A stretch of 46,266 bases of DNA from a virus. Lineage: Duplodnaviria > Heunggongvirae > Uroviricota > Caudoviricetes. The stretch lies in the IMG/VR virus record IMGVR_UViG_2671180743_000008. One strand, given 5' to 3'. Below, one piece after another: positions 7,925 through 37,585 of the stretch (its first letter is position 1; the number at the start of each line of letters is the position of its first letter). The notes beneath the pieces are model-generated. The model searched no databases and was not told where the DNA came from. It saw only the letters and a list, made by a program, of their open reading frames with translations. The position numbers and the translations under genes were made by a program.

Positions 7925-10747
7925 ATGACGGCAGAGTACATCAGGGACTGGCAACAACCGCGCCACGCAGTGGGGCGTGAAGGAACGGGGATCCCCGCTC
8001 CTGAATCCGCGCTTTCCTCCTGGCTGGATGCCCACCGGGCAGAGAACGAGCGCCGCCAGGAAATGGCTGATGCGGCGTTCTCCGCCACGCCACTGGGCAA
8101 CCTGATTAATAAAAGCCTGGACGCACAGGAAAAACAGGACAAAACCATCACACTGGCAGGAGACGCCAGAAAACAGGCACGCGGCGCGGTGGATGAAGCC
8201 ATGGCCTCGCTGCGCCTGCTGCCGTCCTATCTGCGCGATCCGCTTATTCGCCACCTCTCCTTCCTGCGCAAAAAACAGGAAGCCGATCGCCGGAAAGGCA
8301 AAAAGAGCTGGCAGGCGGAACGCTATGCACGCGGAACCCTGCGCAAAATATTCGAACGTCTGGATCGCACTGACGGACACTGGCTGACACCGGGTTATCG
8401 CTCCCTTGCCGGACGTGAACGCCTGGACGATTTGCTTTACCTGCCGCAACTCAACAAACACCAGATACAGACGCTGGCCACCATGACGGCGGCGATGTTC
8501 AGCAGCACCTTCGAAAAACTCTGCGATGGTTTTGGCGCGACTGATGGCGAGCTGACCATGGATGTAACGCTGAAGGCGTATCAGATGCTGGCCCGCATGG
8601 CGTTACACTTACACGCCATGCCTCCGCATTATGACGCACTGACAACAGACAAAGACCGGAGGCACGAACCGGACACAGAACTGCTGCCGGGCGCAATCCT
8701 TCGCCTGACCTGTGCGGAATGGTGGAAACGCAAACTGTGGCTGTTACGTTGCGAGTGGAGAGAAGAACAACTTCGCGCCGCCTGTCTGGTTTCCAGAAAA
8801 ACATCGCCCTATCTGAGCCAGGACGCGTTAAGCGAGTTTCGCGCACAGCGCGAGAAAACACGCGATTTCCTGAAAAGTTTCATGCTGGAAAATGAAGACG
8901 GGTTCACGATTGATCTCGAGACGGTGTATTACGCGGGAGTAAGTAACCCGGTTCACCGTAAGGCAGAAATGATGGCCACCATGAAGGGGCTGGAACTTCT
9001 GGCCGAAGCCCGTGGCGACAAAGCGGTGTTTCTGACTGTCACCTGCCCGTCAAAATACCACGCCACAACGGAGAACGGTCATCCGAATCCCAAATGGAAC
9101 GGGGCCACAATGCGCGACTCCAGCGATTACCTGGTTAACACGTTTTTTGCGACGGTCCGCAAAAAACTGAACCGCGACGGCCTGCGCTGGTATGGCATCC
9201 GCACGGCGGAGCCTCACCATGACGGCACCGTGCACTGGCATATGATGGTCTTTGCTCATCCGGAAGAAATCGACACCATTGTGTCCCACACCCGCGATAT
9301 TGCCATTCAGGAAGATCGTCACGAGCTGGGCGATGACATAACTCCGCGCTTTAAGGCGGAGTATGTAGACGGCTCAAAAGGCACGCCAACCAGCTACATC
9401 GCCACCTACATCGGGAAAAACCTGGACAGCCGCGCCGTGGATGGCATCGACCCGAAAACGGGCAAGCCACGCGTTGACCACGAAACCGGAAAATCAATGG
9501 CCGAGAGCGTGGAACGCGCCATCGGCTGGGCGCGCCTTCACCGGGTCCGCCAGTTCCAGTTCTTTGGCATCCCCTCCCGCCAGGTATGGCGTGAACTGCG
9601 CCGCCTTGCCAGCCAGATGGCACGCAACCCGGAAGGCCCGCAACGGCTGAAGGATGACGCAATGGATGCGGTTCTTGCCGCCGCTGATGCCGGATGTTTT
9701 GCCACCTACATAGAGAAACAGGGCGGCGTACTTGTTCCACGCAAAGACTACCTGATTCGCACCGCCTACGACCTCGCCGATGAGCTGAACGATTACGGCG
9801 AACAGAGCGTACAGATTTACGGGATCTGGTCACCACTCATCGGGGAATCCTCCCGTGTGTGCACGCATCCGGATAACTGGAAGCTGGTAAGACGCAAACC
9901 GGAAGCGGAAGACAGCGCCCGCGAAAATGGTTTTGACCTTCAGGGCGGCCCTGCCGCCCCTTGGACTCGTGGCAATAACTGTCCCCGTGTACAGGAAACG
10001 GACAACAACGGGACAGAACAGCCGGAAGAACGGCCAGCACCGTGGCCGCAGCTCCCTGACGGCGTTGATGTGGATGAATGGATGCGCTCACTGAAACGGC
10101 ACGAACGCCGGGCGCTGATGCGTTCGCTTCGTGACAAACAGGCAAAAAACAGCAGTGATGAAATGCAGAGCTGGACACAGAGCCGCAAACAGCAGCGGCC
10201 TTTGCCTGATAACCACGAATTACTCGCTAAAGAATGGCGGGAGTCTGCTGAATCTCTCGGCCTGCATATCGGTGAACAACAGATGCAGCACCTGTTACGG
10301 GGCGGCAGTCTGTACGTTGACGGCAGCATCATTGCACCGCAGGGATTTGAAATTGTACGCAAACCGGATACCCGCCCGGACAGCCGAATCACGCAGCTCT
10401 GGCAGCGCCTGAGCCGTAATCATGGCGTAAGCAGCACGGAGATCCGCCATAACCCGGTCGCCAGCTATCTGACACAGCTGGGGGCATCAGACCCTGAAGC
10501 CGCCGCACGCCTGGCATCCACACTTCAGCAGGACCAGAACACCATGAAAACACCCGTTACCGTGCTTTCTGACATGCTGCGCGCCATCCGCGACGCAGAG
10601 CACGCACAGAGAATCAGTGAAACCACTGAACGCGCCCGCCGCAAAGCAGACCTGCTGCGGGGTGGCCTGACCAGTGGAAACAAAAAACAGACAGAAACGG
10701 GACTCACGAATCCCGTAAATGAGCAAAAAACGCGCAGCGATATATGA
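7925..10747 (+). CDS. A: P2 gpA-type rolling-circle replication initiator (endonuclease)
   Basis: 940 aa; HUH-type motif VHWHMMVF and tyrosine pair YIATYIGKN as in P2 A; longer than the P2 protein as I recall it, with a charged C-terminal tail. Confidence 0.85.
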   Translation: MTAEYIRDWQQPRHAVGREGTGIPAPESALSSWLDAHRAENERRQEMADAAFSATPLGNLINKSLDAQEKQDKTITLAGDARKQARGAVDEAMASLRLLPSYLRDPLIRHLSFLRKKQEADRRKGKKSWQAERYARGTLRKIFERLDRTDGHWLTPGYRSLAGRERLDDLLYLPQLNKHQIQTLATMTAAMFSSTFEKLCDGFGATDGELTMDVTLKAYQMLARMALHLHAMPPHYDALTTDKDRRHEPDTELLPGAILRLTCAEWWKRKLWLLRCEWREEQLRAACLVSRKTSPYLSQDALSEFRAQREKTRDFLKSFMLENEDGFTIDLETVYYAGVSNPVHRKAEMMATMKGLELLAEARGDKAVFLTVTCPSKYHATTENGHPNPKWNGATMRDSSDYLVNTFFATVRKKLNRDGLRWYGIRTAEPHHDGTVHWHMMVFAHPEEIDTIVSHTRDIAIQEDRHELGDDITPRFKAEYVDGSKGTPTSYIATYIGKNLDSRAVDGIDPKTGKPRVDHETGKSMAESVERAIGWARLHRVRQFQFFGIPSRQVWRELRRLASQMARNPEGPQRLKDDAMDAVLAAADAGCFATYIEKQGGVLVPRKDYLIRTAYDLADELNDYGEQSVQIYGIWSPLIGESSRVCTHPDNWKLVRRKPEAEDSARENGFDLQGGPAAPWTRGNNCPRVQETDNNGTEQPEERPAPWPQLPDGVDVDEWMRSLKRHERRALMRSLRDKQAKNSSDEMQSWTQSRKQQRPLPDNHELLAKEWRESAESLGLHIGEQQMQHLLRGGSLYVDGSIIAPQGFEIVRKPDTRPDSRITQLWQRLSRNHGVSSTEIRHNPVASYLTQLGASDPEAAARLASTLQQDQNTMKTPVTVLSDMLRAIRDAEHAQRISETTERARRKADLLRGGLTSGNKKQTETGLTNPVNEQKTRSDI
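10694..10719. repeat. Palindromic element copy 1 (AACGGGAcTcacGAATCCCGTAAA)
   Basis: Imperfect palindrome ACGGGA...TCCCGT inside the 3' end of gene A; a near-identical copy lies 73 bp downstream. Confidence 0.6.
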
Positions 10748-10766
10748 AGCGCGCACAAAACAGGCA

Positions 10767-10793
10767 AAAACGGGATTTCAGAATCCCGTAAAC
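10767..10793. repeat. Palindromic element copy 2, immediately upstream of parM
   Basis: AAAACGGGATTTCAGAATCCCGTAAA between the gene A stop and the parM start; possible operator or centromere-like site. Confidence 0.6.
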
Positions 10794-10823
10794 GATTAAT
10801 TAATCAACATAAGGAAAAGCGAC

Positions 10824-11783
10824 ATGAAAATTTGTATCGACGACGGCTCCACCAACATCAAGCTGGCATGGACTGAGAACGGCGAACGCCGCAACGCCAT
10901 CAGCCCGAACAGCTTCAAGTCGGAATGGTCTGCGCCGTTCGGTGGCATGCAGCCCGCGAACTACATGCTTGATGGCGTGCGCTATGGTTTTGATCCGGTC
11001 AGCGATCGCTTTGTCCAGACAACCGACACGCAATACCAGTACAGCGATGTAAATGTCATTGCCATTCATCACGCGCTGGTCAAATCAGGCATCACGCCAC
11101 AGGAGGTGGATGTGGTTGTCACCCTGCCACTGAGCGAGTATTTCGACACAAACGCACAGCCGGACATGGCCAACATCAACCGCAAAAAAGCGAACGTTAT
11201 GCGCCCGGTGGAGTACCAGAACGGCGAAGCATTCACTATCCGTAACGTGCGGGTTATGCCTGAATCCATTCCGGCTGGCTTTAAGGCACTGGCTGACATG
11301 AGTCCGTTTGAATCCCTGCTGATTGTGGATTTGGGCGGAACCACGCTGGATGTGGCAAAGGTTCAGGGGCAACTGGCAGGTATCAGCCAGGTGTTTTGCG
11401 ATCCACACGTAGGCGTTTCTCTGATGGCCGATGCCGTACTGTCGGTGATGGCCACTAACGGTATGCGCACCAGTCACCACATCGCCAATACCATTATCGA
11501 ACATCGCCATGATGAAGCCTGGCTGCGCCAGCACATCCACAATGACGCGCATTACGCCAGCCTGATGGCGGTTATTCGTGAAAAGGAAGAAACACTGAAA
11601 CAACGCGTGATCCGCGCGCTGGCGGGTTTTTCGGGTTACGGGCGGGTGATGGTTGTCGGTGGAGGGGCGGAGATTGTGGCACCCGCTATCCGCGAAGCCT
11701 GCGGAGTTAATGCGACTTTCATCGCGGACGGGGTGCCACAGTTTGCTCTGGTTAATGGGCTGTACGCAATGGACAAGGAGTAA
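10824..11783 (+). CDS. parM: ParM/StbA-family actin-like partition ATPase
   Basis: 319 aa; N-terminus MKICIDDGSTNIKLAW, internal YSDVNVIAIHHAL, VMPESIPAG, LIVDLGGTTLDVA, GVSL, FSGYGRVMVVGGGAE and C-terminal LVNGLYA all line up with plasmid R1 ParM as I recall it. Confidence 0.85.
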   Translation: MKICIDDGSTNIKLAWTENGERRNAISPNSFKSEWSAPFGGMQPANYMLDGVRYGFDPVSDRFVQTTDTQYQYSDVNVIAIHHALVKSGITPQEVDVVVTLPLSEYFDTNAQPDMANINRKKANVMRPVEYQNGEAFTIRNVRVMPESIPAGFKALADMSPFESLLIVDLGGTTLDVAKVQGQLAGISQVFCDPHVGVSLMADAVLSVMATNGMRTSHHIANTIIEHRHDEAWLRQHIHNDAHYASLMAVIREKEETLKQRVIRALAGFSGYGRVMVVGGGAEIVAPAIREACGVNATFIADGVPQFALVNGLYAMDKE

Positions 11784-11787
11784 ACCA

Positions 11788-12099
11788 ATGACGACACCAA
11801 CCAGACGGATAAGTTTCTATCTGAAGCCTGCGGCCGTCAAGAACGAAAGCGAAGCATGCGCCTGGCTGGGCAGCCTTACACCAGAAGCCCGCAAAAGCGG
11901 CCAACGCGTGGCTTTTCTGGCCGGGCTGGCACTTCTGAAAATGAATCCAGCAGAGGCTTACCGACTGGCTGCATGGGCTGACGATGAGGCGTTATCGGTG
12001 ACACAAACCAGGACAGAACGCCCCGTGCCACAGCCAGTACCAACCGCACAGATAACCAGTCAGATAGCAGGGAATATCCGGGCATTATTTCCTGAATGA
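11788..12099 (+). CDS. parR: ParR/StbB-like partition adaptor
   Basis: Start at MTTPTRRISFYLKP, 5 nt after the parM stop; N-terminal ribbon-helix-helix-like segment and C-terminal LFPE resemble R1 ParR; follows parM as in the parMR operon. Confidence 0.65.
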   Translation: MTTPTRRISFYLKPAAVKNESEACAWLGSLTPEARKSGQRVAFLAGLALLKMNPAEAYRLAAWADDEALSVTQTRTERPVPQPVPTAQITSQIAGNIRALFPE

Positions 12100-12159
12100 C
12101 GAATTTGACGGCTTTTAATTTTATCGGGGTGCACTGTCGCCCCGCACGAGGAAAACACG

Positions 12160-12684
12160 ATGAAAAAATACGAATACATGCTAATGAAAGAAGCACTGCG
12201 GGCTGGTCTGGCTCCCTGTCCTGTATCCGTAGAAGCTGTTGTTGGGAACACGATTTTCCGAACGCTGCGAAATCGCGTATCCGTGAAGATGGTTCACCAA
12301 CCACCCAAATCTACCAGCATGATCTATCTGCCGCTGCCCGAGGCTATCAAACTTATGCGTTCGCTGAAATTTGCGATTTGGATGCAGACACAAATCAACA
12401 AAGCGGTGCAAAACACCTTCGTTAAGAGACTAATACCGGAGCTTGCTGCCAGATGTGCAAAATGTACCAGACCCGCACTTCAATTTGATCTGTCATTGAT
12501 TCAACAAGCTACGGAGGCAGAACTGTACCGCCTGTCACCTATCCGTGATGCTCACACGGAAGCATCAGAAATGTTCCGGCTCATGTTTCAATTTAATTTT
12601 GCCGTTCGACGCACACGCGTTCAGGTCAATCGCATGATGCAGGAGCAGGAAGAGTTAACACAGTACAAAGGGGGCAGCCAGTGA
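12160..12684 (+). CDS. Hypothetical protein (hotspot cargo)
   Basis: 174 aa; good RBS (GAGG) upstream; no family recognised. Confidence 0.55.
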   Translation: MKKYEYMLMKEALRAGLAPCPVSVEAVVGNTIFRTLRNRVSVKMVHQPPKSTSMIYLPLPEAIKLMRSLKFAIWMQTQINKAVQNTFVKRLIPELAARCAKCTRPALQFDLSLIQQATEAELYRLSPIRDAHTEASEMFRLMFQFNFAVRRTRVQVNRMMQEQEELTQYKGGSQ

Positions 12685-12920
12685 GTAATTCAGCACGACT
12701 ACAGCTTGGTTTTTCACCGCTATCAAAAACCATCGTATTGGCAAAAATGCGTGACTTAGGAGACGGAACAAAACGCCGCGTAGGAAATGATCGCGGTCGC
12801 GATGTAACCAACGAGGCCGCTCAACTCGTTTGGCATCTAGTCATGGCAGAAGGCGGTGAAATTAATTGGGAGCTGGATGATGGTTCTCGTATGATTTTGA
12901 GGGCCGAGAAGAGTAAATAG
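12681..12920 (+). CDS. Hypothetical protein (hotspot cargo)
   Basis: 79 aa; start overlaps the previous stop by 4 nt, suggesting translational coupling. Confidence 0.5.
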   Translation: MSNSARLQLGFSPLSKTIVLAKMRDLGDGTKRRVGNDRGRDVTNEAAQLVWHLVMAEGGEINWELDDGSRMILRAEKSK

Positions 12921-12934
12921 CTCAAGGGGGATTA

Positions 12935-13120
12935 ATGCTAAATGATGATGAAGAAGAGCTGCTTATGCAGGAATGGTCGCTCGGTGATTATGATAATGGT
13001 GAAAATGGGTGCCCGCATTGTGGCCGTTATCGTTTATGTATCTGCCAGAATGGAAAACACAGATGTGAAAAGTGCAATTGGTCTCCGGAACTTAATGACT
13101 ACGTGCCGATCGAGTGGTAG
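12935..13120 (+). CDS. Small cysteine-rich (zinc-finger-like) protein
   Basis: 61 aa; acidic N-terminus then CPHCGRYRLCICQNGKHRCEKCNW (four Cys pairs). Confidence 0.5.
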   Translation: MLNDDEEELLMQEWSLGDYDNGENGCPHCGRYRLCICQNGKHRCEKCNWSPELNDYVPIEW

Positions 13121-13160
13121 AGGTAAGTCACACTAGGTGTTTTTTAGTTGATTTTATAAA

Positions 13161-13190
13161 TGCACAATAGTGCACAAATTTGCACAATTT
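13161..13190. repeat. Three TGCACAA direct repeats at exact 10-bp spacing
   Basis: TGCACAAtag TGCACAAatt TGCACAAttt, directly after the last early-region ORF in the non-coding gap that should contain cos. Confidence 0.6.
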
Positions 13191-13611
13191 TTTTGAACGA
13201 CTTTTTGCCCTTCCGGCCCGCGTGGCGGCTGGATCCGTCAAGGATCCGTGCATGCACAAAAAAACGCGTTTTTTCTGCGCGCAGGTGACGGGGGAACAGC
13301 CCGCGTTTCAGGGGGTAAATAGCATTCCCTGAACGATGTCGCAGAGATACAACAGAATGGCTGTATTTCTCACGCTGAGCGTGAAAAAGACGTGAGGGCT
13401 TTTGATTTGATGGGGTGAAAGGTAAGGCCGTCAAAATCGCACTGAGACGGCGAGAATATGCAGTCAACGAGGTGGGATTGCGTAAGAGTCTGACTGTCGA
13501 TGATGGCAATCAGCAGGAAAGCGTCGTGAAATTATCTGACTGATACAGGAGCTGGAGAGTCGGGGCATAAATTTTTTATGCCCCGGCGAAGCAGCAGACA
13601 AGCGAAGCGCG

Positions 13612-14658
13612 TCAGGATGTGGGCTGGGTGTCTAACAGTGCGTAAGGGTTAAAGCGGATCACCTCTTCGCCAAGCCAGTCATTGATGTGCTTCATGGCCT
13701 CCATGACGGGCATCAGCTCGTTAATTGCGTAAACCCGCGCGGCCTTCTCCACATCACCAAACGCACTTTTTTCGCCCGGCATCGCCCCCATCAGTTGCGG
13801 CGGAACGCGGTGCGCAGCCAGCACATCATCACGGGATGCCGCCTTAACATTCATGAACTCATCCTTTGCGGTGATCTGCTGGAACGGCAAAATTTGCACC
13901 CCCTCTTTGCCCCCGTTGGGCGCATGAATGAGCACGTTTTTAAACGCACCACCACCACGTGCCCCCTGTAGCGTTTCTTTCAGGGAGTCCATGCTTTCGC
14001 GGTTTACCTGCGCTGCACCGATGTAGATGATGCACCCGGCGTGGGATCCGTTGTCGTAGTACAGTTTTCTGAACATGTCCGCCGAATGAGAAAGGCTGGC
14101 CGAGAGTAATGCGCCAAGATATTCCGGCATGCCGTAGATTTCCTGGTTAATATCCGGATTCATCAGGTGGCACACTTTGCCAGGACGAAACTGAAACGCA
14201 TCCTTGCCATCCTGCACATACCACCATGATTCAAGATCGCTTCCGCGTCGCATGTATTTCGCCAGGGCGTGCCGTAATTTAAGCGGTTCGCCGAGCATAT
14301 TGCTCCGAAGCTCAAGGAATGCGTTACCGAACACAAACCAGTCCAGCGCCAGCGCCGAGAAATCCTGCCGGGAAAGCAGCGGGTGCGGAATATAGCAGCC
14401 GAGCAATACATTGCGCTTAAAGTAAAGCGCAGACTGATGCCAGGACGTTTGCCGGGCAGCTCTTGCCAGACCGTACCAGTCCACCGGGGTTTCATACCAC
14501 CGCCCGTTATCAGCACAGTACATATTGTCCAGCAGGTCATGCCCGGTCAGGCGGTAAGGACCATCAAATGTGAATGCACTGAGCGACGATTCTTTCCTGA
14601 GCGCATCAGCGAGATCAATGCGTGAACTCATGCGCACTTTTTTATTTTTTCTGCTCAT
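13612..14658 (-). CDS. Q: Portal protein
   Basis: 348 aa; size and position match P2 gpQ; transcribed leftward with P. Confidence 0.85.
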   Translation of the reverse strand: MSRKNKKVRMSSRIDLADALRKESSLSAFTFDGPYRLTGHDLLDNMYCADNGRWYETPVDWYGLARAARQTSWHQSALYFKRNVLLGCYIPHPLLSRQDFSALALDWFVFGNAFLELRSNMLGEPLKLRHALAKYMRRGSDLESWWYVQDGKDAFQFRPGKVCHLMNPDINQEIYGMPEYLGALLSASLSHSADMFRKLYYDNGSHAGCIIYIGAAQVNRESMDSLKETLQGARGGGAFKNVLIHAPNGGKEGVQILPFQQITAKDEFMNVKAASRDDVLAAHRVPPQLMGAMPGEKSAFGDVEKAARVYAINELMPVMEAMKHINDWLGEEVIRFNPYALLDTQPTS

Positions 14659-16409
14659 CAGAACTCCATAACCGTGAAACGCTCGTTTTCTCCTTCGCCG
14701 CCAATCGGTTCGTTAATGACAGCAAGCATGGTTGCCCACGCAAGGTCGCCGTGGCTGATCCCCCTCGCGCGGTCCGTTTCGTAAGTGATAAAACCGCCCG
14801 GTGTTTTCACCTTACGCACGGCGTTAAAGGCCGCAACCAGCTCGCGTTCGGCGCGATCGTATTCCCACCGCCCGGCACGCATTATTTGCAGCATTTTCAG
14901 TACCAGCGACCGTTTTGATGACAGCGTGAAGGTGTAAGGGATGGCGGCGGGAAAAAACCGTTTCACTATCTGATAGACGGCATCCCCGTGCCCTCCCGTC
15001 GCATCAATGCCGATGTGTTCCACGTTGTAGCGATACGTGAACTCTTCAATAACTCTGGCCTGCTCTTCAAATTCCAGCCCCTGAACGCGTCGCGTCTCCA
15101 CCGTTCTGAAACGACCACCAGGAACAGCCGGAGGAACCACCACGGACACAGCGCCGCTGTCGCCGTTACCACTGCTGCCGTTTGCGTCATACCCAATCCA
15201 TACCGGACGATTCCCCATCGGGCGGGGGGCAAAGGGTTTCCAGTCTTTCCAGTCGTCGTATCCGTCAACACCGCAGCCAATCAGGATATTCAGGTTAAAT
15301 GCCGATTCCCCTTCGCGGACAAACTCACACATATAGAGATTGCGGAACTCGTCTTCGGTGTTTTCATCACGAATTTCATCAATATCGGTGTGTTTCCAGC
15401 CGTGATTAACCACATCTTCCAGCGTGACAATTTGCCGCCACGTCCGGTCAGGGCAGATAAGCCCGTTATGCAGCGTTTTCCAGTCCACAGAAAAACGCTG
15501 GCGTTTATGCGCGGCCTTTTTCTCGTTCCAGCGGTCGCCGTTCCAGTAGGCGTATGCCTCGTGCGTTTCGGTGGATGGCGTGGAGAAGCAGGTGCGCCGC
15601 AGTCCGCTGAGGGTTGCCATAGCGCCAGCCACCTTGCGCAGTTCAGCAAAGCGACTGACCCAGAAAAATTCATCAAAATAAAAATTGCCCGTGTAAGATT
15701 GCGCCGTCGCAGCAGAAGTGCCGAGAAAATGCATCTCTGCGCCGTTGGAGAGGATGATTTTATCGCCCCCTTTCAGCTCCACATCGACTTCAGCCGCGGC
15801 CTTCTGAATAATGCTTTTAAACTGGAACGCCTGACGACGCGACGCAGACAAAAAAATCTGGTTACGCTGGTAAGGTTGTGCCACATCGTCACGCAGCGCC
15901 ATCAGCAGTGCTTCCTGTGCAAAATACCAGGTCGCCCCAATCTGTCGGGATTTCAGGATCATCCTGTTACGTATCCCGGCTTCCCTGCAAAGCGTCAGGG
16001 AGTCAAACCAGCCCCGCTGATGCCACTCCAGCCTGCTGATGATTTTTTCCCGCAGTGCGGCAATCTGTTCCGGCGTGAAATGATTTTTGAGTTTTTTCGC
16101 CCGGCCTTTCTTTCCTGTGGCCGTCGCATCCGGCTGGCCATCATGCAGTTTTTTAAGCTGCCGGGTCAGCAGGTCTATTTCCTTAAAGTCACCACCTGTT
16201 TTATTCTGTTTTTCAGTAAGCTGGATGAGGCGCGCATCGATGGACTGCGTGACACGCTGCACGGGTGGCGTTTCATCCCACTGGTCGCGTTTTTTCCACG
16301 CATAAATCGTGTTCGGGTTTATTCCCATCAGACGTGATATTTCTGCGGGCGGATAACCCTGCCAGTAAAGTTGCCGCGCACGCTGGCGCACAAAAGCGTC
16401 CTGAATCAT
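14658..16409 (-). CDS. P: Terminase large (ATPase) subunit
   Basis: 583 aa; N-terminal HTH-like region, Walker A-like GKKGRAKK; start overlaps the Q stop; matches P2 gpP position. Confidence 0.85.
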   Translation of the reverse strand: MIQDAFVRQRARQLYWQGYPPAEISRLMGINPNTIYAWKKRDQWDETPPVQRVTQSIDARLIQLTEKQNKTGGDFKEIDLLTRQLKKLHDGQPDATATGKKGRAKKLKNHFTPEQIAALREKIISRLEWHQRGWFDSLTLCREAGIRNRMILKSRQIGATWYFAQEALLMALRDDVAQPYQRNQIFLSASRRQAFQFKSIIQKAAAEVDVELKGGDKIILSNGAEMHFLGTSAATAQSYTGNFYFDEFFWVSRFAELRKVAGAMATLSGLRRTCFSTPSTETHEAYAYWNGDRWNEKKAAHKRQRFSVDWKTLHNGLICPDRTWRQIVTLEDVVNHGWKHTDIDEIRDENTEDEFRNLYMCEFVREGESAFNLNILIGCGVDGYDDWKDWKPFAPRPMGNRPVWIGYDANGSSGNGDSGAVSVVVPPAVPGGRFRTVETRRVQGLEFEEQARVIEEFTYRYNVEHIGIDATGGHGDAVYQIVKRFFPAAIPYTFTLSSKRSLVLKMLQIMRAGRWEYDRAERELVAAFNAVRKVKTPGGFITYETDRARGISHGDLAWATMLAVINEPIGGEGENERFTVMEF

Positions 16410-24927: not shown

Positions 24928-26964
24928 ATGAGTACCACAACACGAAAATTTAAAACCATTATCACCGATACGGGTGCAAAAAAATTAGCGCAGGCAACCG
25001 CGCCAGATGGGAAACCTGTCCGCCTGACACATATGGCCGTGGGTGACGGCGGCGGTACTTTACCCACGCCAGACAGTAAGCAGACCCGTCTTGTGCATGA
25101 GGTGTGGCGACATACCGTTAATCGCGTCACCCTGGACGCAACACATCAGAACCACATTATTGCGGAGCTGGTTATTCCTCCTGAAACGGGCGGATTCTGG
25201 ATCCGGGAAATTGGTGTGTTTGATGAGCACGGCGATTTGATCGCGGTAGGCAATACTGCCGAAAGTTACAAGCCAACCGTTGCCGAAGGATCCGGACGTG
25301 CACAAACATTTCGCACCATTCTGACCGTATCCAGCACTGCCACTGTGGCGCTTACCGTGGATAACACCATGGTGATGGCCACAGTGAATTACGTGGATGA
25401 CAAACTGAAAGAGCATGAACAGTCACGACGTCACCCGGACGCCTCGCTGACCGCAAAAGGCCTTGTCCAGCTCAGCAACGCCACCAACAGCACGTCTGAA
25501 ACGCTGGCAGCGACACCAAAAGCCGTTAAGGCAGTAATGGATGAAACGAACAAGAAAGCCCCATTAAACAGCCCGGCACTGACCGGAACGCCAACAACAC
25601 CAACTGCGCGACAGGGAACGAATAATACCCAAATCGCAAGCACGGCTTTCGTTATGGCTGCGATTGCCGCACTTGTAGACTCTTCGCCTGATGCACTGAA
25701 CACACTGAACGAGCTGGCGGCGGCGCTGGGCAACGACCCGAATTTTGCGACCACCATGACTAACGCGCTTGCGGGTAAGCAACCGAAAGATGCCACTCTG
25801 ACGGCGCTGGCGGGGCTTGCTACTGCGGCAGACAGGTTTCCGTATTTTACGGGGAATGATGTCGCCAGCCTGGCAACCCTGACAAAAGTCGGGCGGGATA
25901 TTCTTGCGAAATCGACCGTTGCCGCCGTTATCGAATACCTCGGTTTACAGGAAACGGTAAACAAGGCTGGTAACGCCGTGCAAAAAAATGGCGATACGTT
26001 GTCCGGTGGACTTACTTTTGAAAACGACTCAATCCTTGCCTGGATTCGAAATACTGACTGGGCAAAGATTGGGTTTAAAAATAATTCGGATGCAGACACC
26101 GATTCCTACATGTGGTTTGAAACAGGCAACAACGGCAATGAATATTTCAAATGGAGACACCGCATCATTGGCACCCGGCCTAAAGACCTGATGAATCTTA
26201 AATGGAATGCTTTGTCTGTTCTTGTTGAAGCCCTTTTCAGCAGTGAAGTGAAAATATCGACAGTCAATGCACTGAGGATATTTAATTCATCTTTTGGTGC
26301 CATTTTTCGTCGTTCTGAAGAATGCCTGCATATCATCCCTACACGAGAGAATGAAGGGGAAAATGGTAATATAGGGCCACTACGCCCCTTTACGCTTAAT
26401 CTCAGAACTGGCCGGATAAGCATGGGGCATGGTCTTGATGTTACAGGGGATATATTTGCAAACCGTTTTGCAATTAACAGTAGTACCGGCATGTGGATTC
26501 ATATGCGTGACCAGAATGTTATTTTGGGACGTAATGCGGTATCCACTGATGGTGCTCAGGCTTTGCTCCGTCAGGACCATGCCGACCGCAAATTTATGAT
26601 TGGCGGTCTGGGAAATAAGCAATTTGGCATCTACATGATTAATAACTCAAGGACAGCCAATGGCACCGATGGTCAGGCGTACATGGATAATAACGGGAAC
26701 TGGCTTTGCGGCTCGCAAGTTATTCCCGGCAACTATGGCAATTTTGATTCCAGATATGTGAAAGATGTTCGACTTGGTTCACAGCAATATTATGGAGTGA
26801 ACAACTGGCAAACATGGAATTTTCAGTGCCCGTCAGGCTATGTACTGACGGGGATTAACGTACAGGATACCGGAAAAAACTCTGCCGATAATATTGCAGG
26901 CGTTCATTACAGGCCAGTGCAAAAGTATATAAATGGCACTTGGTATAATGTGGCGAGTATTTAA
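24928..26964 (+). CDS. H: Tail fibre protein H, copy 1 (constant N-terminus plus tip variant A)
   Basis: 678 aa; conserved fibre shaft motifs ([62 protein letters not shown]); contains a gix-like site at 25928..25953. Confidence 0.9.
25928..25953. other. gix/pix-like invertase crossover site inside H copy 1
   Basis: TTATCGAATACCTCGGTTTACAGGAA; differs at 2 of 26 positions from the reverse complement of the invertase-proximal sites; lies exactly where the constant and variable parts of H meet. Confidence 0.75.
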
Positions 26965-26965
26965 T

Positions 26966-27493
26966 ATGATGCACTTAAAGAACATAAAAGCAGGTAATGC
27001 TAAAACAGTGGAGCAGTATGAGTTAACAAAGAAGCACGGAGTCATCTGGCTTTACTCTGAGGACGGAAAAAACTGGTATGAGGAAGTGAAGAACTTTCAG
27101 CCAGACACAATAAAGATTGTTTACGATGCAAATAATATTATTGTCGCCATCACCAAAGATGCCTCCACGCTTAACCCTGAAGGTTATAGCGTCGTTGAGG
27201 TTCCTGATATTACAGCTAATCGTCGTGCTGATGATTCCGGTAAGTGGATGTTTAAGGACGGAGCTGTGGTTAAACGGATTTATACGGCTGACGAACAGCA
27301 ACAACAGGCCGAATCACAAAAGGCCGCATTGCTTTCCGAAGCTGAATCAGTCATCCAGCCGCTGGAACGCGCTGTCAGGCTGAATATGGCGACGGACGAG
27401 GAACGCACACGACTGGAAGCATGGGAACGCTACAGTGTTCTGGTCAGCCGTGTGGATACGGCAAAGCCAGAATGGCCACAAAAGCCTGAGTAA
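26966..27493 (+). CDS. G: Tail fibre assembly protein G/Tfa (partner of tip A)
   Basis: Start at [10 protein letters not shown], 2 nt after the H stop; 175 aa; C-terminal 60 residues identical to those of the tfa at 34453..34980. Confidence 0.85.
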
Positions 27494-27498
27494 AAATT

Positions 27499-27518
27499 AA
27501 GGCCCGATATCGGGCCTT
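27499..27518. terminator. Hairpin terminator after G
   Basis: AAGGCCCGATATCGGGCCTT perfect hairpin; a near-identical hairpin recurs at 34985..35004. Confidence 0.6.
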
Positions 27519-27525
27519 ACGCAGT

Positions 27526-28632
27526 GTGAACACCGTTGGCAAATCGGCATTCGTGGAGGCTGTCGGTCGGGCGAGCGATGATGCGGAAGGTTACTTGGAT
27601 TTTTTCAAAGGAGAGATAGGGAAAACACATCTGGCTCAGGAGCTGTGGACGCAGATTGATAACGGTCAGCTTGCGCCTGACCTGGCTGAAATCAGGACGT
27701 CCATTACGGATGTCAGCAATGAAATCACGCAGACCGTCAATAAGAAACTGGAAGACCAGAGTGCGGCAATTCAGCAGATACAGAAGGTTCAGGTTGATAC
27801 AAATAATAATCTGAACAGCATGTGGGCTGTGAAGCTGCAACAGATGAAGGACGGACGCCTTTATATTGCGGGTATCGGTGCCGGTATTGAGAATACGCCA
27901 GCAGGAATGCAGAGTCAGGTGCTGCTGGCGGCAGACAGGATTGCGATGATTAATCCTGCGAATGGCAACACAAAGCCGATGTTTGTTGGTCAGGGCGATC
28001 AGATATTCATGAACGACGTGTTCCTGAAACGCCTGACGGCTCCCACCATTACCAGCGGCGGTAATCCTCCGGCATTTTCCCTGACACCGGACGGAAAACT
28101 GACCGCTAAAAATGCAGATATCAGTGGCAGTGTGAATGCGAACGCCGGGACGCTCAACAATGTCACAATTAATGAGAACTGTCAGATTAAGGGGAAACTG
28201 TCAGCCAACCAGATTGAAGGCGATATAGTCAAAACAGTGGGTAAGGCTTTTCCGCGGGACTCCCGGGCACCGGAGCGGTGGCCATCAGGGACCATTACCG
28301 TCAGGATTTATGACGATCAGCCTTTTGACAGGCAAATTGTTATTCCGGCGGTGGCATTCAGCGGCGCTAAACATGAGCGGGAGAATAACGATATTTATTC
28401 GTCATGCCGCCTGATAGTACGGAAAAACGGTGCTGAAATTTATAACCGTACCGCGCTGGATAATACGCTGATTTACAGTGGTGTTATTGATATGCCAGCT
28501 GGTCGCGGCCACATGACGCTGGAGTTTTCGGTGTCAGCATGGCTGGTGAATAACTGGTATCCCACAGCAAGTATCAGCGATTTGCTGGTTGTGGTGATGA
28601 AGAAAGCCACCGCAGGCATCAGTATCAGCTGA
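27526..28632 (+). pseudogene. Lambdoid host-specificity protein J, C-terminal fragment
   Basis: Open frame starts abruptly right after the G terminator with no plausible start or RBS (first codon GTG); followed by lom, stf and tfa in the lambda order J-lom-stf-tfa; family call from memory of lambda J. Confidence 0.6.
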
Positions 28633-28699
28633 ATTTTATAACCCATATACGGGCGCCAGAAATGGCGCCTTTTTTATTGCAGAAAAGCGAGAGGTAATT

Positions 28700-29299
28700 A
28701 TGCGTAAAGTTTGTGCAGCCATTTTGTCCGCAGCCATTTGCCTGGCCGTATCCGGTGCGCCTGCATGGGCGTCTGAACATCAGTCCACACTGAGCGCGGG
28801 GTATCTTCATGCCCGTACGAACGCTCCCGGCAGCGATAATCTGAACGGGATTAACGTGAAATACCGTTATGAGTTTACGGACGCGCTGGGGCTGATTACG
28901 TCCTTCAGTTATGCCAATGCTGAGGATGAGCAAAAAACGCACTACAGCGATACCCGCTGGCATGAAGATTCCGTGCGTAACCGCTGGTTCAGCGTGATGG
29001 CGGGGCCGTCTGTACGCGTGAATGAATGGTTCAGCGCGTATGCGATGGTGGGTGTGGCTTACAGCCGTGTGTCGACTTTCTCCGGGGATTATCTCCGCGT
29101 AACTGACAACAAGGGGAAAACGCACGATGTGCTGACCGGAAGTGATGACGGTCGCCACAGCAACACGTCTCTGGCGTGGGGGGCTGGCGTGCAGTTTAAC
29201 CCGACCGAATCCGTGACCATTGACCTTGCTTATGAAGGTTCCGGTAGTGGTGACTGGCGAACGGATGCATTTATTGTTGGTATCGGATACCGTATCTGA
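28700..29299 (+). CDS. lom: Lom (Ail/PagC/Lom-family outer-membrane beta-barrel protein)
   Basis: 199 aa with signal peptide; INVKYRYEFTD, VMAGP, SAYAMVGVA and C-terminal AYEGSGSGDWRTDAFIVGIGYRI line up with lambda Lom. Confidence 0.9.
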   Translation: MRKVCAAILSAAICLAVSGAPAWASEHQSTLSAGYLHARTNAPGSDNLNGINVKYRYEFTDALGLITSFSYANAEDEQKTHYSDTRWHEDSVRNRWFSVMAGPSVRVNEWFSAYAMVGVAYSRVSTFSGDYLRVTDNKGKTHDVLTGSDDGRHSNTSLAWGAGVQFNPTESVTIDLAYEGSGSGDWRTDAFIVGIGYRI

Positions 29300-29404
29300 C
29301 AACAGACGCCGATTTATCTTCTGTAAATATTGTTATGATACGCAGGTTCATCCACCTTATGGGGTGAACTGCGTTTGAGGAAACGTAAAGTTACACTGTC
29401 CTGA

Positions 29405-29437
29405 AGCCCGTGGCGTCACTGCTGCGGGCTTTTTTTA
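29405..29437 (+). terminator. Rho-independent terminator after lom
   Basis: AGCCCG ... CGGGCT stem followed by TTTTTTT. Confidence 0.65.
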
Positions 29438-29450
29438 TTGGTGGAAAAGT

Positions 29451-32207: not shown

Positions 32208-32208
32208 G

Positions 32209-32535
32209 ATGATGCACCTGAAAAATATTAAGGCCGGGAATCCGAAAACACCGGAACAATACCAGCTAACTAAAAAACCGCTGGGATACCTCATTCGCGT
32301 GTCTGAGTGGTGGGAGTTCAACGGCGAACCCGGAACATTCAAGATTGATGTTGGCACGCTGGACAGTGGCGTGACGGAGGAAATGTATCTGGAAATGGAG
32401 CGGTTGATTGCTGATGCCCGCCCGGTCAGCCGCCACATGACAGGGCTGAATATCATTCAGGAGATTCAGGGAGATATTTTCGCGGCAGCAGCAACTTACG
32501 ACGGTGAAGTCATTACCATTTATCCGGACGATTAA
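32209..32535 (+). pseudogene. Chimeric ORF: tfa N-terminus (23 codons) fused in frame to the C-terminal part of gene I
   Basis: [23 protein letters not shown] then PLGYLIRVSEWWEF...ITIYPDD, which is identical to the end of gene I at about 24665..24925; junction at about 32277/32278. Confidence 0.75.
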
Positions 32536-32537
32536 GC

Positions 32538-34451: not shown

Positions 34452-34452
34452 G

Positions 34453-34980
34453 ATGATGCACCTGAAAAATATTAAGGCCGGGAATCCGAAAACACCGGAA
34501 CAATACCAGCTAACTAAAAAAGCGGGCGTGGTATGGCTCTTTTGCGAAGATGGCAAAAACTGGTATGAGGAACAAAAGAATTTTCAGCCAGACACCATAA
34601 AAATTGCTTACGATGAGAACAACATCATCGTTGCTGTCAGTAAAGACGTTTCAACTATTAATCCTGAAGGGCTAAGCATAGTTGAAGTTCCTGATATTAC
34701 GGCAAATCGTCACGCAGACAATAACGGAAAATGGATGTTTCTGGATGGTAAAGTAGTAAAGAGGGAATATACAGAACAGGAACTGCAACAACAGGCCGAA
34801 TCACAAAAGGCCGCATTGCTTTCCGAAGCTGAATCAGTCATCCAGCCGCTGGAACGCGCTGTCAGGCTGAATATGGCGACGGACGAGGAACGCACACGAC
34901 TGGAAGCATGGGAACGCTACAGTGTTCTGGTCAGCCGTGTGGATACGGCAAATCCTGAATGGCCACAAAAGCCTGAATAA
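34453..34980 (+). CDS. tfa: Tail fibre assembly protein Tfa (partner of tip B)
   Basis: Start at [23 protein letters not shown]; 175 aa; follows H copy 2 with a 1-nt gap. Confidence 0.85.
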
Positions 34981-34984
34981 AAAT

Positions 34985-35004
34985 TAAGGCCCGATAGCGG
35001 GCCT
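34985..35004. terminator. Bidirectional hairpin terminator between convergent tfa genes
   Basis: AAGGCCCGATAGCGGGCCTT lying between the stops of the plus-strand tfa (34980) and the minus-strand tfa (35009). Confidence 0.6.
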
Positions 35005-35008
35005 TCTC

Positions 35009-37583: not shown

Positions 37584-37585
37584 CG

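What the first reader, a model, noticed from the sequence alone, without database searches (positions are those of the whole stretch)
12160..13120. Three-ORF unknown module in the post-A accessory slot
Three tightly packed plus-strand ORFs (174, 79 and 61 aa; the first two overlap by 4 nt) follow parR and precede the cos-containing gap. This is the position where P2 carries phage-exclusion cargo (tin and old). None is recognisable to me. The third is a small protein with four CxxC-like cysteine pairs after an acidic N-terminus. The module is a candidate for a small defence, anti-defence or regulatory system.
Basis: partly seen in the sequence, partly recalled or inferred. Interest (0 to 1): 0.6.

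Follow-up and report, generated by a model that had tools for sequence, protein, structure and literature searches.

The report
Three unrelated small phage accessory genes
The three tightly packed genes are real, but they are three separately swapped small accessory genes of unknown function, joined once in the known variable slot of a P2-family prophage, and not a three-part defence system.

Summary
The three plus-strand ORFs exist as described: 12160-12684, 12681-12920 and 12935-13120. All are genuine genes, with Shine-Dalgarno sites, conserved families and dN/dS of 0.08-0.38. They fill the variable stretch (12100-13160) of a P88-like (Xuanwuvirus) P2-family prophage, between parR and cos/portal. 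This is the published gpA-gpQ hotspot.

They are not a co-inherited module. DNA-homology breakpoints split the stretch into three single-gene cassettes, each found elsewhere with other partners.
- ORF1 is an orphan family (3 clusters at 50% identity among 1.84 billion proteins) and usually sits beside an Ead/Ea22-like gene.
- ORF2 is DUF7446. It normally lies in Ead/Ea22 gene trains of P22-like, lambdoid and P1-like phages.
- ORF3 is a conserved zinc ribbon with six cysteines in three pairs, not four. It is the last gene before cos in many divergent P2-like phages.

Every co-occurrence of the three that was inspected lies in one near-identical prophage. The ORF1/ORF2 joint is a conserved linker (AAAGGrGG..CAGTGA) that serves as ribosome-binding site, overlapping stop/start and recombination joint.

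There are no PADLOC, NCBIfam, PDB or fold matches. The most likely reading is early-operon accessory genes that act singly. Their functions remain unknown. Ordinary, modest interest.

The parts
11788..12099 (+). parR (Plasmid_stab_B). This is the conserved left flank of the variable slot.
   Evidence: Pfam PF10784 at 5e-23. Annotated as a 103-aa partition protein in relatives. DNA homology among P88-like loci ends at about 12095-12100.
12100..12159 (+). Leader of cassette 1. No sigma-70-like promoter was found in it. In one relative (P0003) a 1-nt frame difference makes it an in-frame 21-codon extension that starts at an ATGA overlap with the parR stop.
   Evidence: The leader plus the first 27 codons of ORF1 survive as a remnant in other slot types (83% identity over 12093-12242).
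12160..12684 (+). ORF1: 174 aa, basic (pI 10.0), an orphan family. The low-confidence model shows a short N-terminal helix, a beta-hairpin region and four long helices. It is cassette 1 (12100-12688).
   Evidence: No Pfam, PHROG, PADLOC, NCBIfam or PDB match. 8 clusters among 5.8 billion proteins and 3 representatives among 1.84 billion. dN/dS 0.27-0.38. AF2 pLDDT 49.8. 97% DNA identity over 12100-12688 in E. coli prophages where an Ead/Ea22-like gene follows. Residues 2-71 resemble the N-terminus of a 197-aa protein upstream of a YafO toxin (hhalign probability 82-84%).
12666..12688 (+). Inter-cassette linker ACAAAGGGGGCAGCCAGTGAGTA. It encodes the K-G-G-S-Q tail of ORF1, the Shine-Dalgarno site of ORF2 and the overlapping GTG start/TGA stop. 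It is the recombination joint.
   Evidence: The same linker joins different upstream genes (ORF1, a 75-aa gene, Ead/Ea22-like genes, a 55-aa gene) to different downstream genes (DUF7446, Ead/Ea22). The homology breakpoints at 12660, 12669 and 12688 fall within it.
12681..12920 (+). ORF2: 79 aa, a DUF7446 family protein. It is cassette 2 (about 12660-12911).
12905..12934 (+). Joint between cassettes 2 and 3. The last codons of ORF2 (E-K-S-K-stop) and the ribosome-binding site of ORF3 come from sequence that precedes ORF3 in Salmonella P2-like prophages lacking ORF2.
   Evidence: Homology to the Yersinia phage ends at 12911. Homology to the Salmonella P2-likes starts at 12905. ORF2 relatives elsewhere have longer, different C-terminal tails.
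12935..13120 (+). ORF3: 61 aa, acidic (pI 4.4). A variable acidic N-terminus is followed by a conserved W-x-L-G-D-Y-D-N-G motif and a zinc ribbon (C26xxC29 ... C44xxC47, plus C35 and C37). It is cassette 3 (12905 to about 13160).
   Evidence: phrog_24897 at 2.6e-46. 36 clusters; C29, C35, C44 and C47 are invariant and C26 and C37 nearly so. dN/dS 0.095. Only sub-threshold generic zinc-ribbon matches. It is the last gene before cos/portal in 16 of 48 IMG/VR loci, behind varying upstream genes.
13161..13611 (.). Conserved right flank, the cos-proximal non-coding region. It contains a weak terminator-like hairpin plus T-run at 13170-13195 and a cos-like GGTGACGGGGGAACAGCCC at 13282-13300.
   Evidence: Homology among P88-like loci resumes at 13159-13161. 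The hairpin GTGCACAAATTTGCAC followed by AATTTTTTT is listed and is conserved in Salmonella P2-likes. Its folding energy is no better than shuffled sequence (z -0.7). The P2 cos 19-mer itself is not present within 3 mismatches.
13612..14658 (-). Portal gene (gpQ homologue), the far boundary of the hotspot.
   Evidence: Annotated as phage portal protein in near-identical relatives.

Best explanation
The stretch 12100-13160 is the cargo of the known gpA-gpQ (here parR-cos) variable slot of a P88-like P2-family prophage. It is a chimera of three independently mobile single-gene cassettes, drawn from the pool of small non-essential early genes that temperate enterobacterial phages share. That pool is the 'ea'/exo-xis-type gene trains rich in Ead/Ea22-like genes.

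Shown:
- Each gene is a real, selectively constrained coding sequence.
- Each has its own homology breakpoints and its own set of alternative neighbours.
- ORF1 and ORF2 are joined by a conserved linker that recurs between many different gene pairs. The linker supplies the ribosome-binding site and the overlapping stop/start.
- The ORF2/ORF3 joint clipped the normal C-terminal tail of ORF2.
- The three co-occur only in one near-identical prophage lineage.

Inferred:
- The genes are transcribed as the tail of the rightward early/replication-partition transcript. They share its strand and are tightly packed, and no promoter-like site precedes ORF1. ORF1 and ORF2 are translationally coupled.
- Transcription ends in the conserved cos-proximal region.
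- Each protein acts on its own as a small binder or modulator of a host or phage macromolecule during induction or early infection. The precedent is the lambda exo-xis proteins (Orf63, Ea22, Orf73/TraR-like). They do not act as components of one defence system.
- ORF3 is a zinc-ribbon protein whose near-invariant core suggests a conserved binding partner.
- ORF1 is a basic, mostly helical protein. Its N-terminal domain is shared with a putative partner of a YafO toxin.
- ORF2 is a small alpha/beta protein of the DUF7446 family.
For: Anatomy, coding signals and composition.

Slot identity and variability:
-.
- PMC9122126 defines the gpA-gpQ hotspot. It reports par systems in about a quarter of P2-likes. 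Its Table S5A lists WP_000759755 (the 95%-identical ORF1 protein of strain PEC41) as 'hypothetical' next to StbA, Plasmid_stab_B and Ead_Ea22.

Independent assortment:
- no complete E. coli genome has all three. About 27 have ORF1 at 95-99% DNA identity; the genomes listed show an Ead/Ea22-like gene beside it. One has ORF2+ORF3 behind a ClpX-type zinc-finger gene and a 75-aa gene.
- 80 ParR loci.
- 48 ORF3 loci.
- 80 DUF7446 loci.

Joints: breakpoints; linker.

Usual habitats:
- ORF2 lies between abc1 (anti-RecBCD) and eaD in the early-left operon of a P22-like phage, and in an Ead/Ea22 train of a P1-like plasmid.
- ORF3 lies next to terminase, integrase or recombination genes in other phages.

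Other points:
- No defence model matches.
- An IS3-family insertion splits ORF1 in one otherwise identical prophage, so ORF1 is dispensable for carriage.
- Precedent for the function of such small early genes: PMC3824215, PMC7093339, PMC9239242, PMC10869804 (abstracts only).
Against: - No expression data. The absence of a promoter rests on a simple consensus scan, so a non-canonical or ParR-regulated promoter could drive expression in the lysogen.
- The terminator-like site is weak.
- No function is demonstrated for any of the three families. Structure prediction was of low (ORF1) or moderate (ORF2) confidence, and fold searches were uninformative.
- The slot is a validated reservoir of defence genes. 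A recent preprint predicts antiviral function for 15-32% of unknown proteins in P2 hotspots.
- The co-occurrence counts come from capped samples: the best 80 of 192 ParR loci and the best 80 of 160 DUF7446 loci. They also rest on a crude greedy ORF caller.
Confidence: 0.7

Rival explanations
1. One of the three genes, acting alone, is a prophage-encoded anti-phage defence or superinfection-exclusion gene. It would be analogous to P2 tin or old, expressed in the lysogen and excluding competing phages.
For: The location is the experimentally validated gpA-gpQ defence hotspot (PMC9122126). G+C is lower than in the phage core. 19% of P2-likes have only unknown genes at defence loci, and 15-32% of such proteins are predicted antiviral (bioRxiv 10.64898/2026.02.27.708500).
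Against: No PADLOC hit. The proteins are small and have no enzymatic, NTPase, nuclease or transmembrane domain. They lie on the same strand as the early operon and are contiguous with it, with no promoter-like site. The usual homes of ORF2 and ORF3 are early or regulatory operons of other temperate phages, not defence islands.
Confidence: 0.15
2. One or more of the genes is a counter-defence or host-takeover protein made early after induction or infection. ORF3, for example, could be an acidic zinc-ribbon inhibitor of a host nuclease or restriction system, or a binder of RNA polymerase.
For: The genes are placed in the early operon. ORF2 relatives sit two genes downstream of the anti-RecBCD gene abc1 in a P22-like phage. 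ORF3 has an acidic N-terminus and an almost invariant zinc-ribbon core across phages that are otherwise divergent, as expected for a binder of a conserved target. There is precedent in small zinc-finger phage proteins that bind RNA polymerase (lambda Orf73/TraR, PMC9239242).
Against: There is no sequence or profile similarity to any known anti-defence family. No TraR/DksA, Lar or Ogr Pfam match appears among 25 ORF3 family members even at E up to 10. Only 28 of 1511 P2-likes carry recognisable anti-defence genes. This explanation is a functional sub-case of the best explanation rather than an alternative anatomy.
Confidence: 0.2
3. ORF3 is a phage-intrinsic factor tied to the packaging end of the genome. 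It could be a cos-region or terminase accessory protein, or a regulator of the adjacent late genes. It would not be cargo.
For: In 16 of 48 IMG/VR loci it is the last gene before cos/portal in P2-like phages whose portals are only 44-74% identical to this one, while the genes upstream of it differ. In at least 7 non-P2 phage contigs it lies just upstream of terminase genes.
Against: It is absent from most P88-like phages (present in 4 of 80), from P2 and P88 themselves, and from all 50,697 deposited phage genomes apart from weak Lactococcus phage hits. In other contigs it sits next to integrase, head or exonuclease genes. The junction before the packaging genes is itself a common site for accessory genes.
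Confidence: 0.1
4. The three genes form one co-functional module, or ORF1 and ORF2 form a toxin-antitoxin pair.
For: Tight packing and a 4-nt overlap. The N-terminus of ORF1 resembles that of a 197-aa protein encoded immediately upstream of a YafO-family toxin in the same slot of other prophages.
Against: The genes assort independently in every data set examined. The 4-nt overlap belongs to a generic linker shared by many unrelated gene pairs. ORF1 is split by an IS element in a prophage that keeps ORF2 and ORF3 intact. No toxin or antitoxin family matches ORF1, ORF2 or ORF3.
Confidence: 0.03

Closest known systems
Cargo of the P2 gpA-gpQ (cos-proximal) hotspot, e.g. P2 old and tin (Rousset et al. 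2022, PMC9122126)
   Same: Same genomic slot between the replication gene and cos/portal. Conserved flanks with highly variable content. Lower G+C than the core. A near-identical ORF1 protein (WP_000759755) is already listed in that paper's table of hotspot arrangements as 'hypothetical'.
   Different: No similarity to old, tin or any PADLOC model. The genes are small and co-oriented with the early operon, and they resemble lambdoid early accessory genes rather than defence systems. No anti-phage activity has been tested.
Lambdoid exo-xis / P22 'ea' region gene trains (orf60a, orf61, orf63, orf73, ea22, ea8.5; P22 eaA-eaI)
   Same: Trains of small, non-essential, early-transcribed genes with overlapping stop/start codons and mosaic, cassette-wise exchange. 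ORF2 relatives actually reside in such trains, between Ead/Ea22-like genes. The 3' end of ORF1 carries the linker that most often ends Ead/Ea22-like genes upstream of DUF7446.
   Different: Here the train sits in a P2-family phage downstream of parMR rather than between exo and xis. None of the three proteins is homologous to a characterised exo-xis protein: there is no Pfam match to Ead_Ea22 or to the DksA/TraR zinc finger.
Small phage zinc-finger regulators: P2 Ogr/P4 Delta, lambda Orf73/TraR-DksA type, Rac Lar (RalR), Mu Com
   Same: ORF3 is of similar size (about 60-75 aa) and has a four-cysteine zinc site built from two CxxC knuckles. Like TraR, it has an acidic N-terminal segment.
   Different: The cysteine spacing is C-x2-C-x14-C-x2-C with two extra cysteines, unlike Ogr (C-x2-C-x22-C-x4-C). 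No Pfam match to these families appears among 25 family members. The only matches are sub-threshold ones to generic zinc ribbons (IS1595, TFIIB, L37ae).
YafO-type type II toxin-antitoxin modules found in the same slot of related prophages
   Same: Residues 2-71 of ORF1 align with the N-terminus of the 197-aa protein encoded immediately upstream of a YafO toxin (hhalign probability 82-84%).
   Different: No toxin gene accompanies ORF1 here or in most ORF1 loci. The C-terminal two thirds of ORF1 are unrelated to that protein. ORF1 can be disrupted by an IS element without loss of the prophage.

Membership tests
P2-like gpA-gpQ hotspot cargo | Located between the replication gene A and the portal gene Q, next to cos | tested here: met
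   GpA is at 7925-10747 (PF05840, 6.6e-131) and the portal at 13612-14658 on the minus strand. The slot is 12100-13160.
P2-like gpA-gpQ hotspot cargo | Content varies between closely related phages while the flanks stay conserved | tested here: met
   73 ParR-to-portal slots gave 62 distinct sequences and dozens of arrangements. Flank homology ends at about 12100 and resumes at about 13160.
Known anti-phage defence systems (PADLOC-DB 2.0) | Match to a defence protein model | tested here: not met
   No family matched any of the three proteins at E up to 1.
Anti-phage defence (functional) | Reduces plating or replication of a challenging phage | not testable with these tools
   This needs expression and phage challenge.
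Multi-gene system / operonic module | Components co-inherited across unrelated backbones | tested here: not met
   The trio was found only in one 99-100% identical prophage (L012-L015). ORF1 occurs without ORF2/3 in 13 of 17 ParR-linked loci. ORF2 occurs without ORF1/3 in 76 of 80 loci. ORF3 occurs without ORF1/2 in 44 of 48 loci.
Pfam DUF7446 (PF24233), for ORF2 | Score above the gathering threshold over the full domain | tested here: met
   61 bits against a cutoff of 24.1, residues 7-77 on profile positions 2-67 of 70. Precomputed PF24233 on all listed homologues.
PHROG phrog_24897 (ORF3) and phrog_1578 (ORF2) | Full-length profile match | tested here: met
   2.6e-46 over 1-60 of 60, and 2.1e-32. 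Both families are of unknown function.
Zinc ribbon (generic fold), for ORF3 | Two conserved CxxC knuckles about 14-20 residues apart | tested here: met
   C29, C44 and C47 are invariant and C26 nearly invariant in 25 sequences. Metal binding itself was not tested.
Named zinc-ribbon Pfam families (Zn_ribbon_IS1595, TFIIB Zn_Ribbon_TF), for ORF3 | Score above the gathering threshold | tested here: not met
   Best score 17.1 bits against a cutoff of 25.4. 9 of 25 members give sub-threshold hits.
Ogr/Delta late-gene activators, for ORF3 | C-x2-C-x22-C-x4-C zinc finger and a family profile match (the motif is quoted from established knowledge of P2 Ogr) | tested here: not met
   The spacing is C-x2-C-x14-C-x2-C. 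No Ogr_Delta hit among 25 members at E up to 10.
DksA/TraR C4 zinc-finger proteins (lambda Orf73 type), for ORF3 | Profile match to zf-dskA_traR | tested here: not met
   The family is not among those hit by any of 25 members at E up to 10.
Type II toxin-antitoxin pair (ORF1/ORF2) | Conserved adjacent pair plus a recognisable toxin or antitoxin domain | tested here: not met
   No TA domain. The pair is not conserved. ORF1 is split by an IS element while ORF2 stays intact.
Ead/Ea22-type gene trains | Cassettes joined by the conserved AAAGGAGGCAAmCAGTGA linker (ribosome-binding site plus overlapping stop/start), with an Ead_Ea22 domain in neighbouring genes | tested here: inconclusive
   The linker is present at 12666-12688 and recurs upstream of most DUF7446 genes. 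Ead/Ea22-like genes flank ORF1 and ORF2 relatives elsewhere. No Ead_Ea22 gene is present in this window's slot, and none of the three proteins matches PF13935.

The most novel reading that the evidence does not exclude
ORF3 founds an uncharacterised family of about 60-aa acidic zinc-ribbon proteins. Many divergent P2-like phages keep it as the last gene before cos, and other phages often keep it next to their terminase genes. It, or ORF2/DUF7446, or the orphan ORF1, could be a new single-protein counter-defence, host-takeover or exclusion factor that binds a highly conserved target.
Probability: 0.2. Interest if true: 0.6.

Novelty: new member of a known kind. Interest (0 to 1): 0.3.

Why it matters
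It shows that this apparent three-gene 'system' in a famous defence hotspot is a one-off splice of three separately travelling genes. Tight packing and start/stop overlap in phage hotspots therefore should not be read as evidence of a functional module.

It documents the joint that makes such splicing easy. This is a roughly 20-nt linker that acts at once as the protein tail of the upstream gene, as ribosome-binding site and as overlapping stop/start.

It also singles out three families of unknown function that are abundant in Escherichia/Shigella and, for ORF2 and ORF3, also Salmonella prophages. The exact proteins occur on 640-900 contigs each. ORF3 is the most promising for experiments because of its conserved position and its invariant zinc-ribbon core.

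Tried and rejected
- **Family libraries.** Pfam, PHROGs, NCBIfam and PADLOC scans of all three proteins returned only DUF7446 and two PHROGs of unknown function.
- **PDB sequence and profile searches.** Nothing for ORF1 or ORF2, and only generic zinc-ribbon noise for ORF3.
- **Exhaustive profile search with the ORF1 family.** Only 3 representatives were found, so no remote relatives could be used.
- **Structure prediction and fold search.**
- **Rfam scan of 11500-14000.** No RNA family.
- **P2 cos 19-mer.** Absent within 3 mismatches.
- **Promoter scan.** The one promoter-like site (12866-12895, inside ORF2) is below chance expectation and lies in the wrong cassette to belong to ORF3.
- **Terminator fold.** Not better than shuffled sequence.
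- **tblastn of ORF1 and ORF3 against 50,697 phage genomes.** None for ORF1 and only weak Lactococcus phage hits for ORF3.
- **Literature search for DUF7446.** No paper.
- **Toxin-antitoxin reading of ORF1/ORF2.** Considered and rejected on co-occurrence and on the IS-disrupted allele.
Full report
**1. Observation**

The window carries a P2-family prophage. GpA is at 7925-10747 (PF05840, 6.6e-131). It is followed by ParM (10824-11783) and ParR (11788-12099), then by the three ORFs in question, then by a non-coding stretch. Beyond that lie the portal gene (13612-14658) and the large terminase gene (14658-16409), both leftward.

Length alone is weak evidence, because 54 ORFs of at least 40 aa overlap 9000-16000. 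All three are nevertheless real genes.
- Each has a Shine-Dalgarno sequence (GAGGA, AAGGGGG, AAGGGGG).
- Each has a conserved protein family.
- Pairwise dN/dS is 0.27-0.38 for ORF1, 0.08-0.16 for ORF2 and 0.095 for ORF3. For the distant ORF3 relatives synonymous sites are saturated while amino-acid identity stays at 62-70%.

ORF3 has six cysteines in three pairs (C26xxC29, C35xC37, C44xxC47), not four pairs.

**2. What the slot is**

The nearest deposited phages are Escherichia phage P88 and its relatives (Peduoviridae, Xuanwuvirus). They match the flanks at 94-97% identity but not the middle (taxonomy).

In 73 ParR-to-portal slots taken from 80 IMG/VR loci there are 62 distinct sequences and dozens of gene arrangements. 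Homology among them ends at about 12100 and resumes at 13159-13161. The three ORFs therefore fill the variable stretch exactly.

Their G+C is 44.6-48.0%, against 54-58% for gpA, parM, parR, portal and terminase.

This is the published hotspot. Rousset et al. (PMC9122126) define the cos-proximal gpA-gpQ locus as a diversity hotspot with 1,650 arrangements. They note that P2 has old and tin there, and that about a quarter of P2-like phages carry a putative partition system there. Their Table S5A already lists WP_000759755 as 'hypothetical', together with StbA, Plasmid_stab_B and Ead_Ea22. That accession is the ORF1 protein of strain PEC41, which is 95% identical to the window's ORF1.

**3. Not a module: three cassettes**

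No complete E. coli genome among 5,426 holds the whole stretch.
- Window 12100-12688 (ORF1) is 95-99% identical in about 27 genomes. In the genomes listed an Ead/Ea22-like gene follows it.
- Window 12660-13160 (ORF2+ORF3) is 99% identical in one genome. There it follows a ClpX-type zinc-finger gene and a 75-aa gene.
- ORF2 alone (12669-12911) is 80-92% identical to genes in Yersinia phage vB_YpM_39, a P22-like Salmonella phage, lambdoid phages, and P1-like and other phage-plasmids.
- ORF3 with its ribosome-binding site and 3' flank (12905-13314) is 88-89% identical to Salmonella P2-like prophages. These lack parMR, ORF1 and ORF2.

The co-occurrence counts agree.
- Of 80 ParR loci, 17 have ORF1 and only 4 of those also have ORF2 and ORF3.
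- Of the best 80 DUF7446 loci, 76 have neither ORF1 nor ORF3 within 3 kb.
- Of 48 ORF3 loci, 44 lack ORF1 and ORF2.
- The four co-occurrences (L012-L015) are the same prophage at 99-100% identity, so they represent one evolutionary event. That prophage is common: the exact proteins occur on 820, 908 and 643 contigs, from sources that include E. coli O28ac and Shigella sonnei, and are always annotated 'hypothetical'.
- In L015 an IS3-family element (HTH_Tnp_1 plus rve) splits ORF1 near window position 12323-12330, while ORF2 and ORF3 stay intact.

**4. The joints**

*ORF1/ORF2.* The boundary lies in a conserved linker. Here it reads ACAAAGGGGGCAGCCAGTGAGTAAT; the consensus is AAAGGAGGCAAmCAGTGAGTAAT. 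The linker:
- encodes the K-G-G-N/S-Q tail of the upstream protein;
- contains the Shine-Dalgarno site of the downstream gene;
- holds the overlapping GTG start and TGA stop.

The same linker joins ORF1 to Ead/Ea22, a 75-aa gene to DUF7446, Ead/Ea22-like genes to DUF7446, and a 55-aa gene to DUF7446. It explains the 4-nt overlap without any need for functional coupling between the two proteins. It is the kind of short shared boundary at which mosaic phage genes recombine; that generalisation rests on established knowledge of lambdoid mosaicism, not on a test here.

*ORF2/ORF3.* This joint (12905-12911) lies inside the 3' end of ORF2. The window's ORF2 ends E-K-S-K-stop, using sequence that precedes ORF3 in the Salmonella prophages. 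Other DUF7446 proteins carry longer, different tails.

**5. What each protein is**

*ORF1* is basic (pI 10.0) and has no match in Pfam, PHROGs, NCBIfam, PADLOC or the PDB.
- It has no relative in 50,697 phage genomes. There are only 8 clusters among 5.8 billion proteins and 3 representatives among 1.84 billion.
- There is one specific lead. Residues 2-71 align with the N-terminus of a 197-aa protein (hhalign probability 82-84%, E about 1e-5), and no other slot family scored above 5% probability. In L024 and in seven complete E. coli genomes that protein is encoded immediately upstream of a YafO-family toxin in the same slot.

*ORF2* is a DUF7446 protein and is extremely conserved, with 78-95% identity over 40 sequences.
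- Its usual neighbours are Ead/Ea22-like genes.
- In Salmonella phage 29485 it lies in the early-left operon, between abc1 and eaD.
- The model (pLDDT 66) has three beta strands, a helix and two further strands. No structural match was found.

*ORF3* is acidic (pI 4.4).
- It has a variable acidic N-terminus, an invariant W..LG.Y motif and a zinc-ribbon core, GCPxCGRxRLCxCxNGKHRCEKCNW. In that core C29, C35, C44 and C47 are invariant and C26 and C37 nearly so.
- Only sub-threshold generic zinc-ribbon matches appear (IS1595, TFIIB, L37ae). No Ogr/Delta, DksA/TraR or Lar match appears among 25 members.
- Its position is notable. In 16 of 48 IMG/VR loci it is the last gene before cos/portal of P2-like phages. 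Outside the window's own lineage their portals are only 44-74% identical to this one, and the genes upstream of ORF3 vary.
- In other phage contigs it often sits just upstream of terminase genes. It is also found next to integrase, head or exonuclease genes.

**6. Mechanism**

*Shown:* the mosaic anatomy, purifying selection, independent assortment and the shared linker.

*Inferred:*
- The genes share the strand of gpA and parMR and are tightly packed.
- No sigma-70-like site precedes ORF1.
- The families' other homes are early or regulatory operons.
- The three genes are therefore most likely expressed as the tail of the early transcript on induction or infection, with ORF2 translationally coupled to ORF1. 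Transcription would stop somewhere in the conserved cos-proximal region. A weak hairpin plus T-run at 13170-13195 is conserved across P2-likes, but it folds no better than shuffled sequence.
- Each protein would act alone as a small binder or modulator. The precedent is the lambda exo-xis proteins, which tune the lysis-lysogeny decision and host physiology (PMC3824215, PMC7093339, PMC10869804). Another precedent is lambda Orf73, a TraR-like zinc-finger protein that reprograms RNA polymerase (PMC9239242).
- I put 0.7 on this composite reading. The anatomical part is close to certain. The functional class is roughly even odds.

*Rivals:*

| Reading | Confidence |
|---|---|
| Single-gene defence expressed in the lysogen | 0.15 |
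| Counter-defence or host takeover (a functional sub-case of the best explanation) | 0.2 |
| Packaging-linked role for ORF3 | 0.1 |
| Three-gene system, or an ORF1/ORF2 toxin-antitoxin pair | 0.03 |

The defence reading is kept alive by the hotspot's record, and by a preprint that predicts antiviral function for 15-32% of unknown proteins at P2 defence loci.

**7. Novelty and verdict**

The kind of thing is known: variable cargo of the P2 gpA-gpQ hotspot, built from lambdoid-type small early genes. One of the proteins is already tabulated in the literature as hypothetical. What is new here is modest.
- The apparent module is shown to be a one-off chimera.
- The linker and the clipped ORF2 tail are described.
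- ORF3 has a recurrent cos-proximal position.
- ORF1 has a link to a putative YafO partner.

Interest is 0.3. The most novel reading not excluded is that ORF3 or another of the three is a new single-protein counter-defence, takeover or exclusion factor. I give it a probability of about 0.2, with interest of 0.6 if true.

**8. Limits**
- The co-occurrence samples are capped: the best 80 of 192 ParR loci and the best 80 of 160 DUF7446 loci.
- Gene calling in the comparative loci used a simple greedy ORF picker. At the ORF3 site it picked the 64-aa alternative frame; I corrected for this by using tblastn.
- There are no expression data and no experimental data.

Noticed in passing
window 10681-10722 and 10754-10795: Two copies of a 42-nt repeat (81% identical), each holding a palindrome ACGGGAyTynnGAATCCCGT. 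One lies in the last codons of gene A and one in the 76-nt A-parM spacer. They are candidate ParR-binding (parC-like) sites or a regulatory element for parMR. No repeats were found between parR and ORF1.
   Followed up: partly
window 24928-39198: The tail-fibre region is unusually long and composite. It holds a P2-type fibre gene (24928-26964), a lambda-J C-terminal receptor-binding fragment (27526-28632), a Lom/Ail outer-membrane protein (28700-29299) and a lambdoid side-tail-fibre-like gene (29451-32207). It also holds a second P2-type fibre gene (32538-34451), two inverted fibre-tip plus assembly-protein pairs, and a resolvase/invertase (38593-39198). This suggests a lambdoid insert plus an invertible host-range segment.
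   Followed up: partly
L024 6019-7053 (and seven complete E. coli genomes, e.g. NZ_CP019944.1 1281912-1283112): In the same parR-cos slot, downstream of an ORF1 homologue, a 197-aa hypothetical protein is followed by a YafO-family toxin (PF13957, 2.3e-27). The N-terminus of the 197-aa protein resembles that of ORF1. This may be an unusual YafO partner.
   Followed up: partly
L015 5544-6801 (corresponds to window ~12323-12330): An IS3-family element of about 1.26 kb (HTH_Tnp_1 ORF plus rve ORF) interrupts ORF1 in an otherwise 99-100% identical prophage. ORF2 and ORF3 remain intact.
   Followed up: yes
window 12096-12160; protein P0003: An ATG overlaps the parR stop (ATGA at 12096-12099). In one ORF1 relative (P0003, 195 aa) this upstream start is in frame and adds 21 residues. 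In the window it is out of frame by one base, so ORF1 starts at 12160 with its own ribosome-binding site.
   Followed up: partly
L002 ~8276-8461 (NZ_CP065615.1, E. coli FDAARGOS_943): The ORF3 homologue lies in a stretch that is 99% identical at the DNA level to the window. It is not annotated in this RefSeq record, although the neighbouring DUF7446 gene is. The 61-aa gene is easily missed by annotation pipelines.
   Followed up: no
L085, L019, L040 and other ParR loci (slot between ParR and portal): Other occupants of the same slot in P88-like phages include an AAA-ATPase-like 360-aa protein with a 734-aa partner. There is also a 381-aa protein with a 183-aa partner, named by eye as HTH/peptidase-like and PIN-like. 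A reverse-oriented pair of 135 and 118 aa looks Fic/Doc- and Phd-like by eye. Single DUF4760 and DUF3800 genes also occur. The slot thus mixes likely defence or toxin-antitoxin cargo with small ea-type genes. Only DUF4760, DUF3800, YafO and a sub-threshold Mom-like hit (22.5 bits against a 27.1 cutoff) were scanned against Pfam.
   Followed up: partly
window 13282-13300: GGTGACGGGGGAACAGCCC lies in the conserved non-coding region and is shared with Salmonella P2-likes. By eye it resembles the P2 cohesive-end 19-mer GGCGAGGCGGGGAAAGCAC in about 13 of 19 positions. The exact P2 cos is absent within 3 mismatches.
   Followed up: partly
window 7925-10747: The GpA homologue is 940 aa. The Phage_GPA domain covers only residues 179-503, and the long C-terminal part matches PHROGs of unknown function (phrog_6857, phrog_14885).
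   Followed up: no
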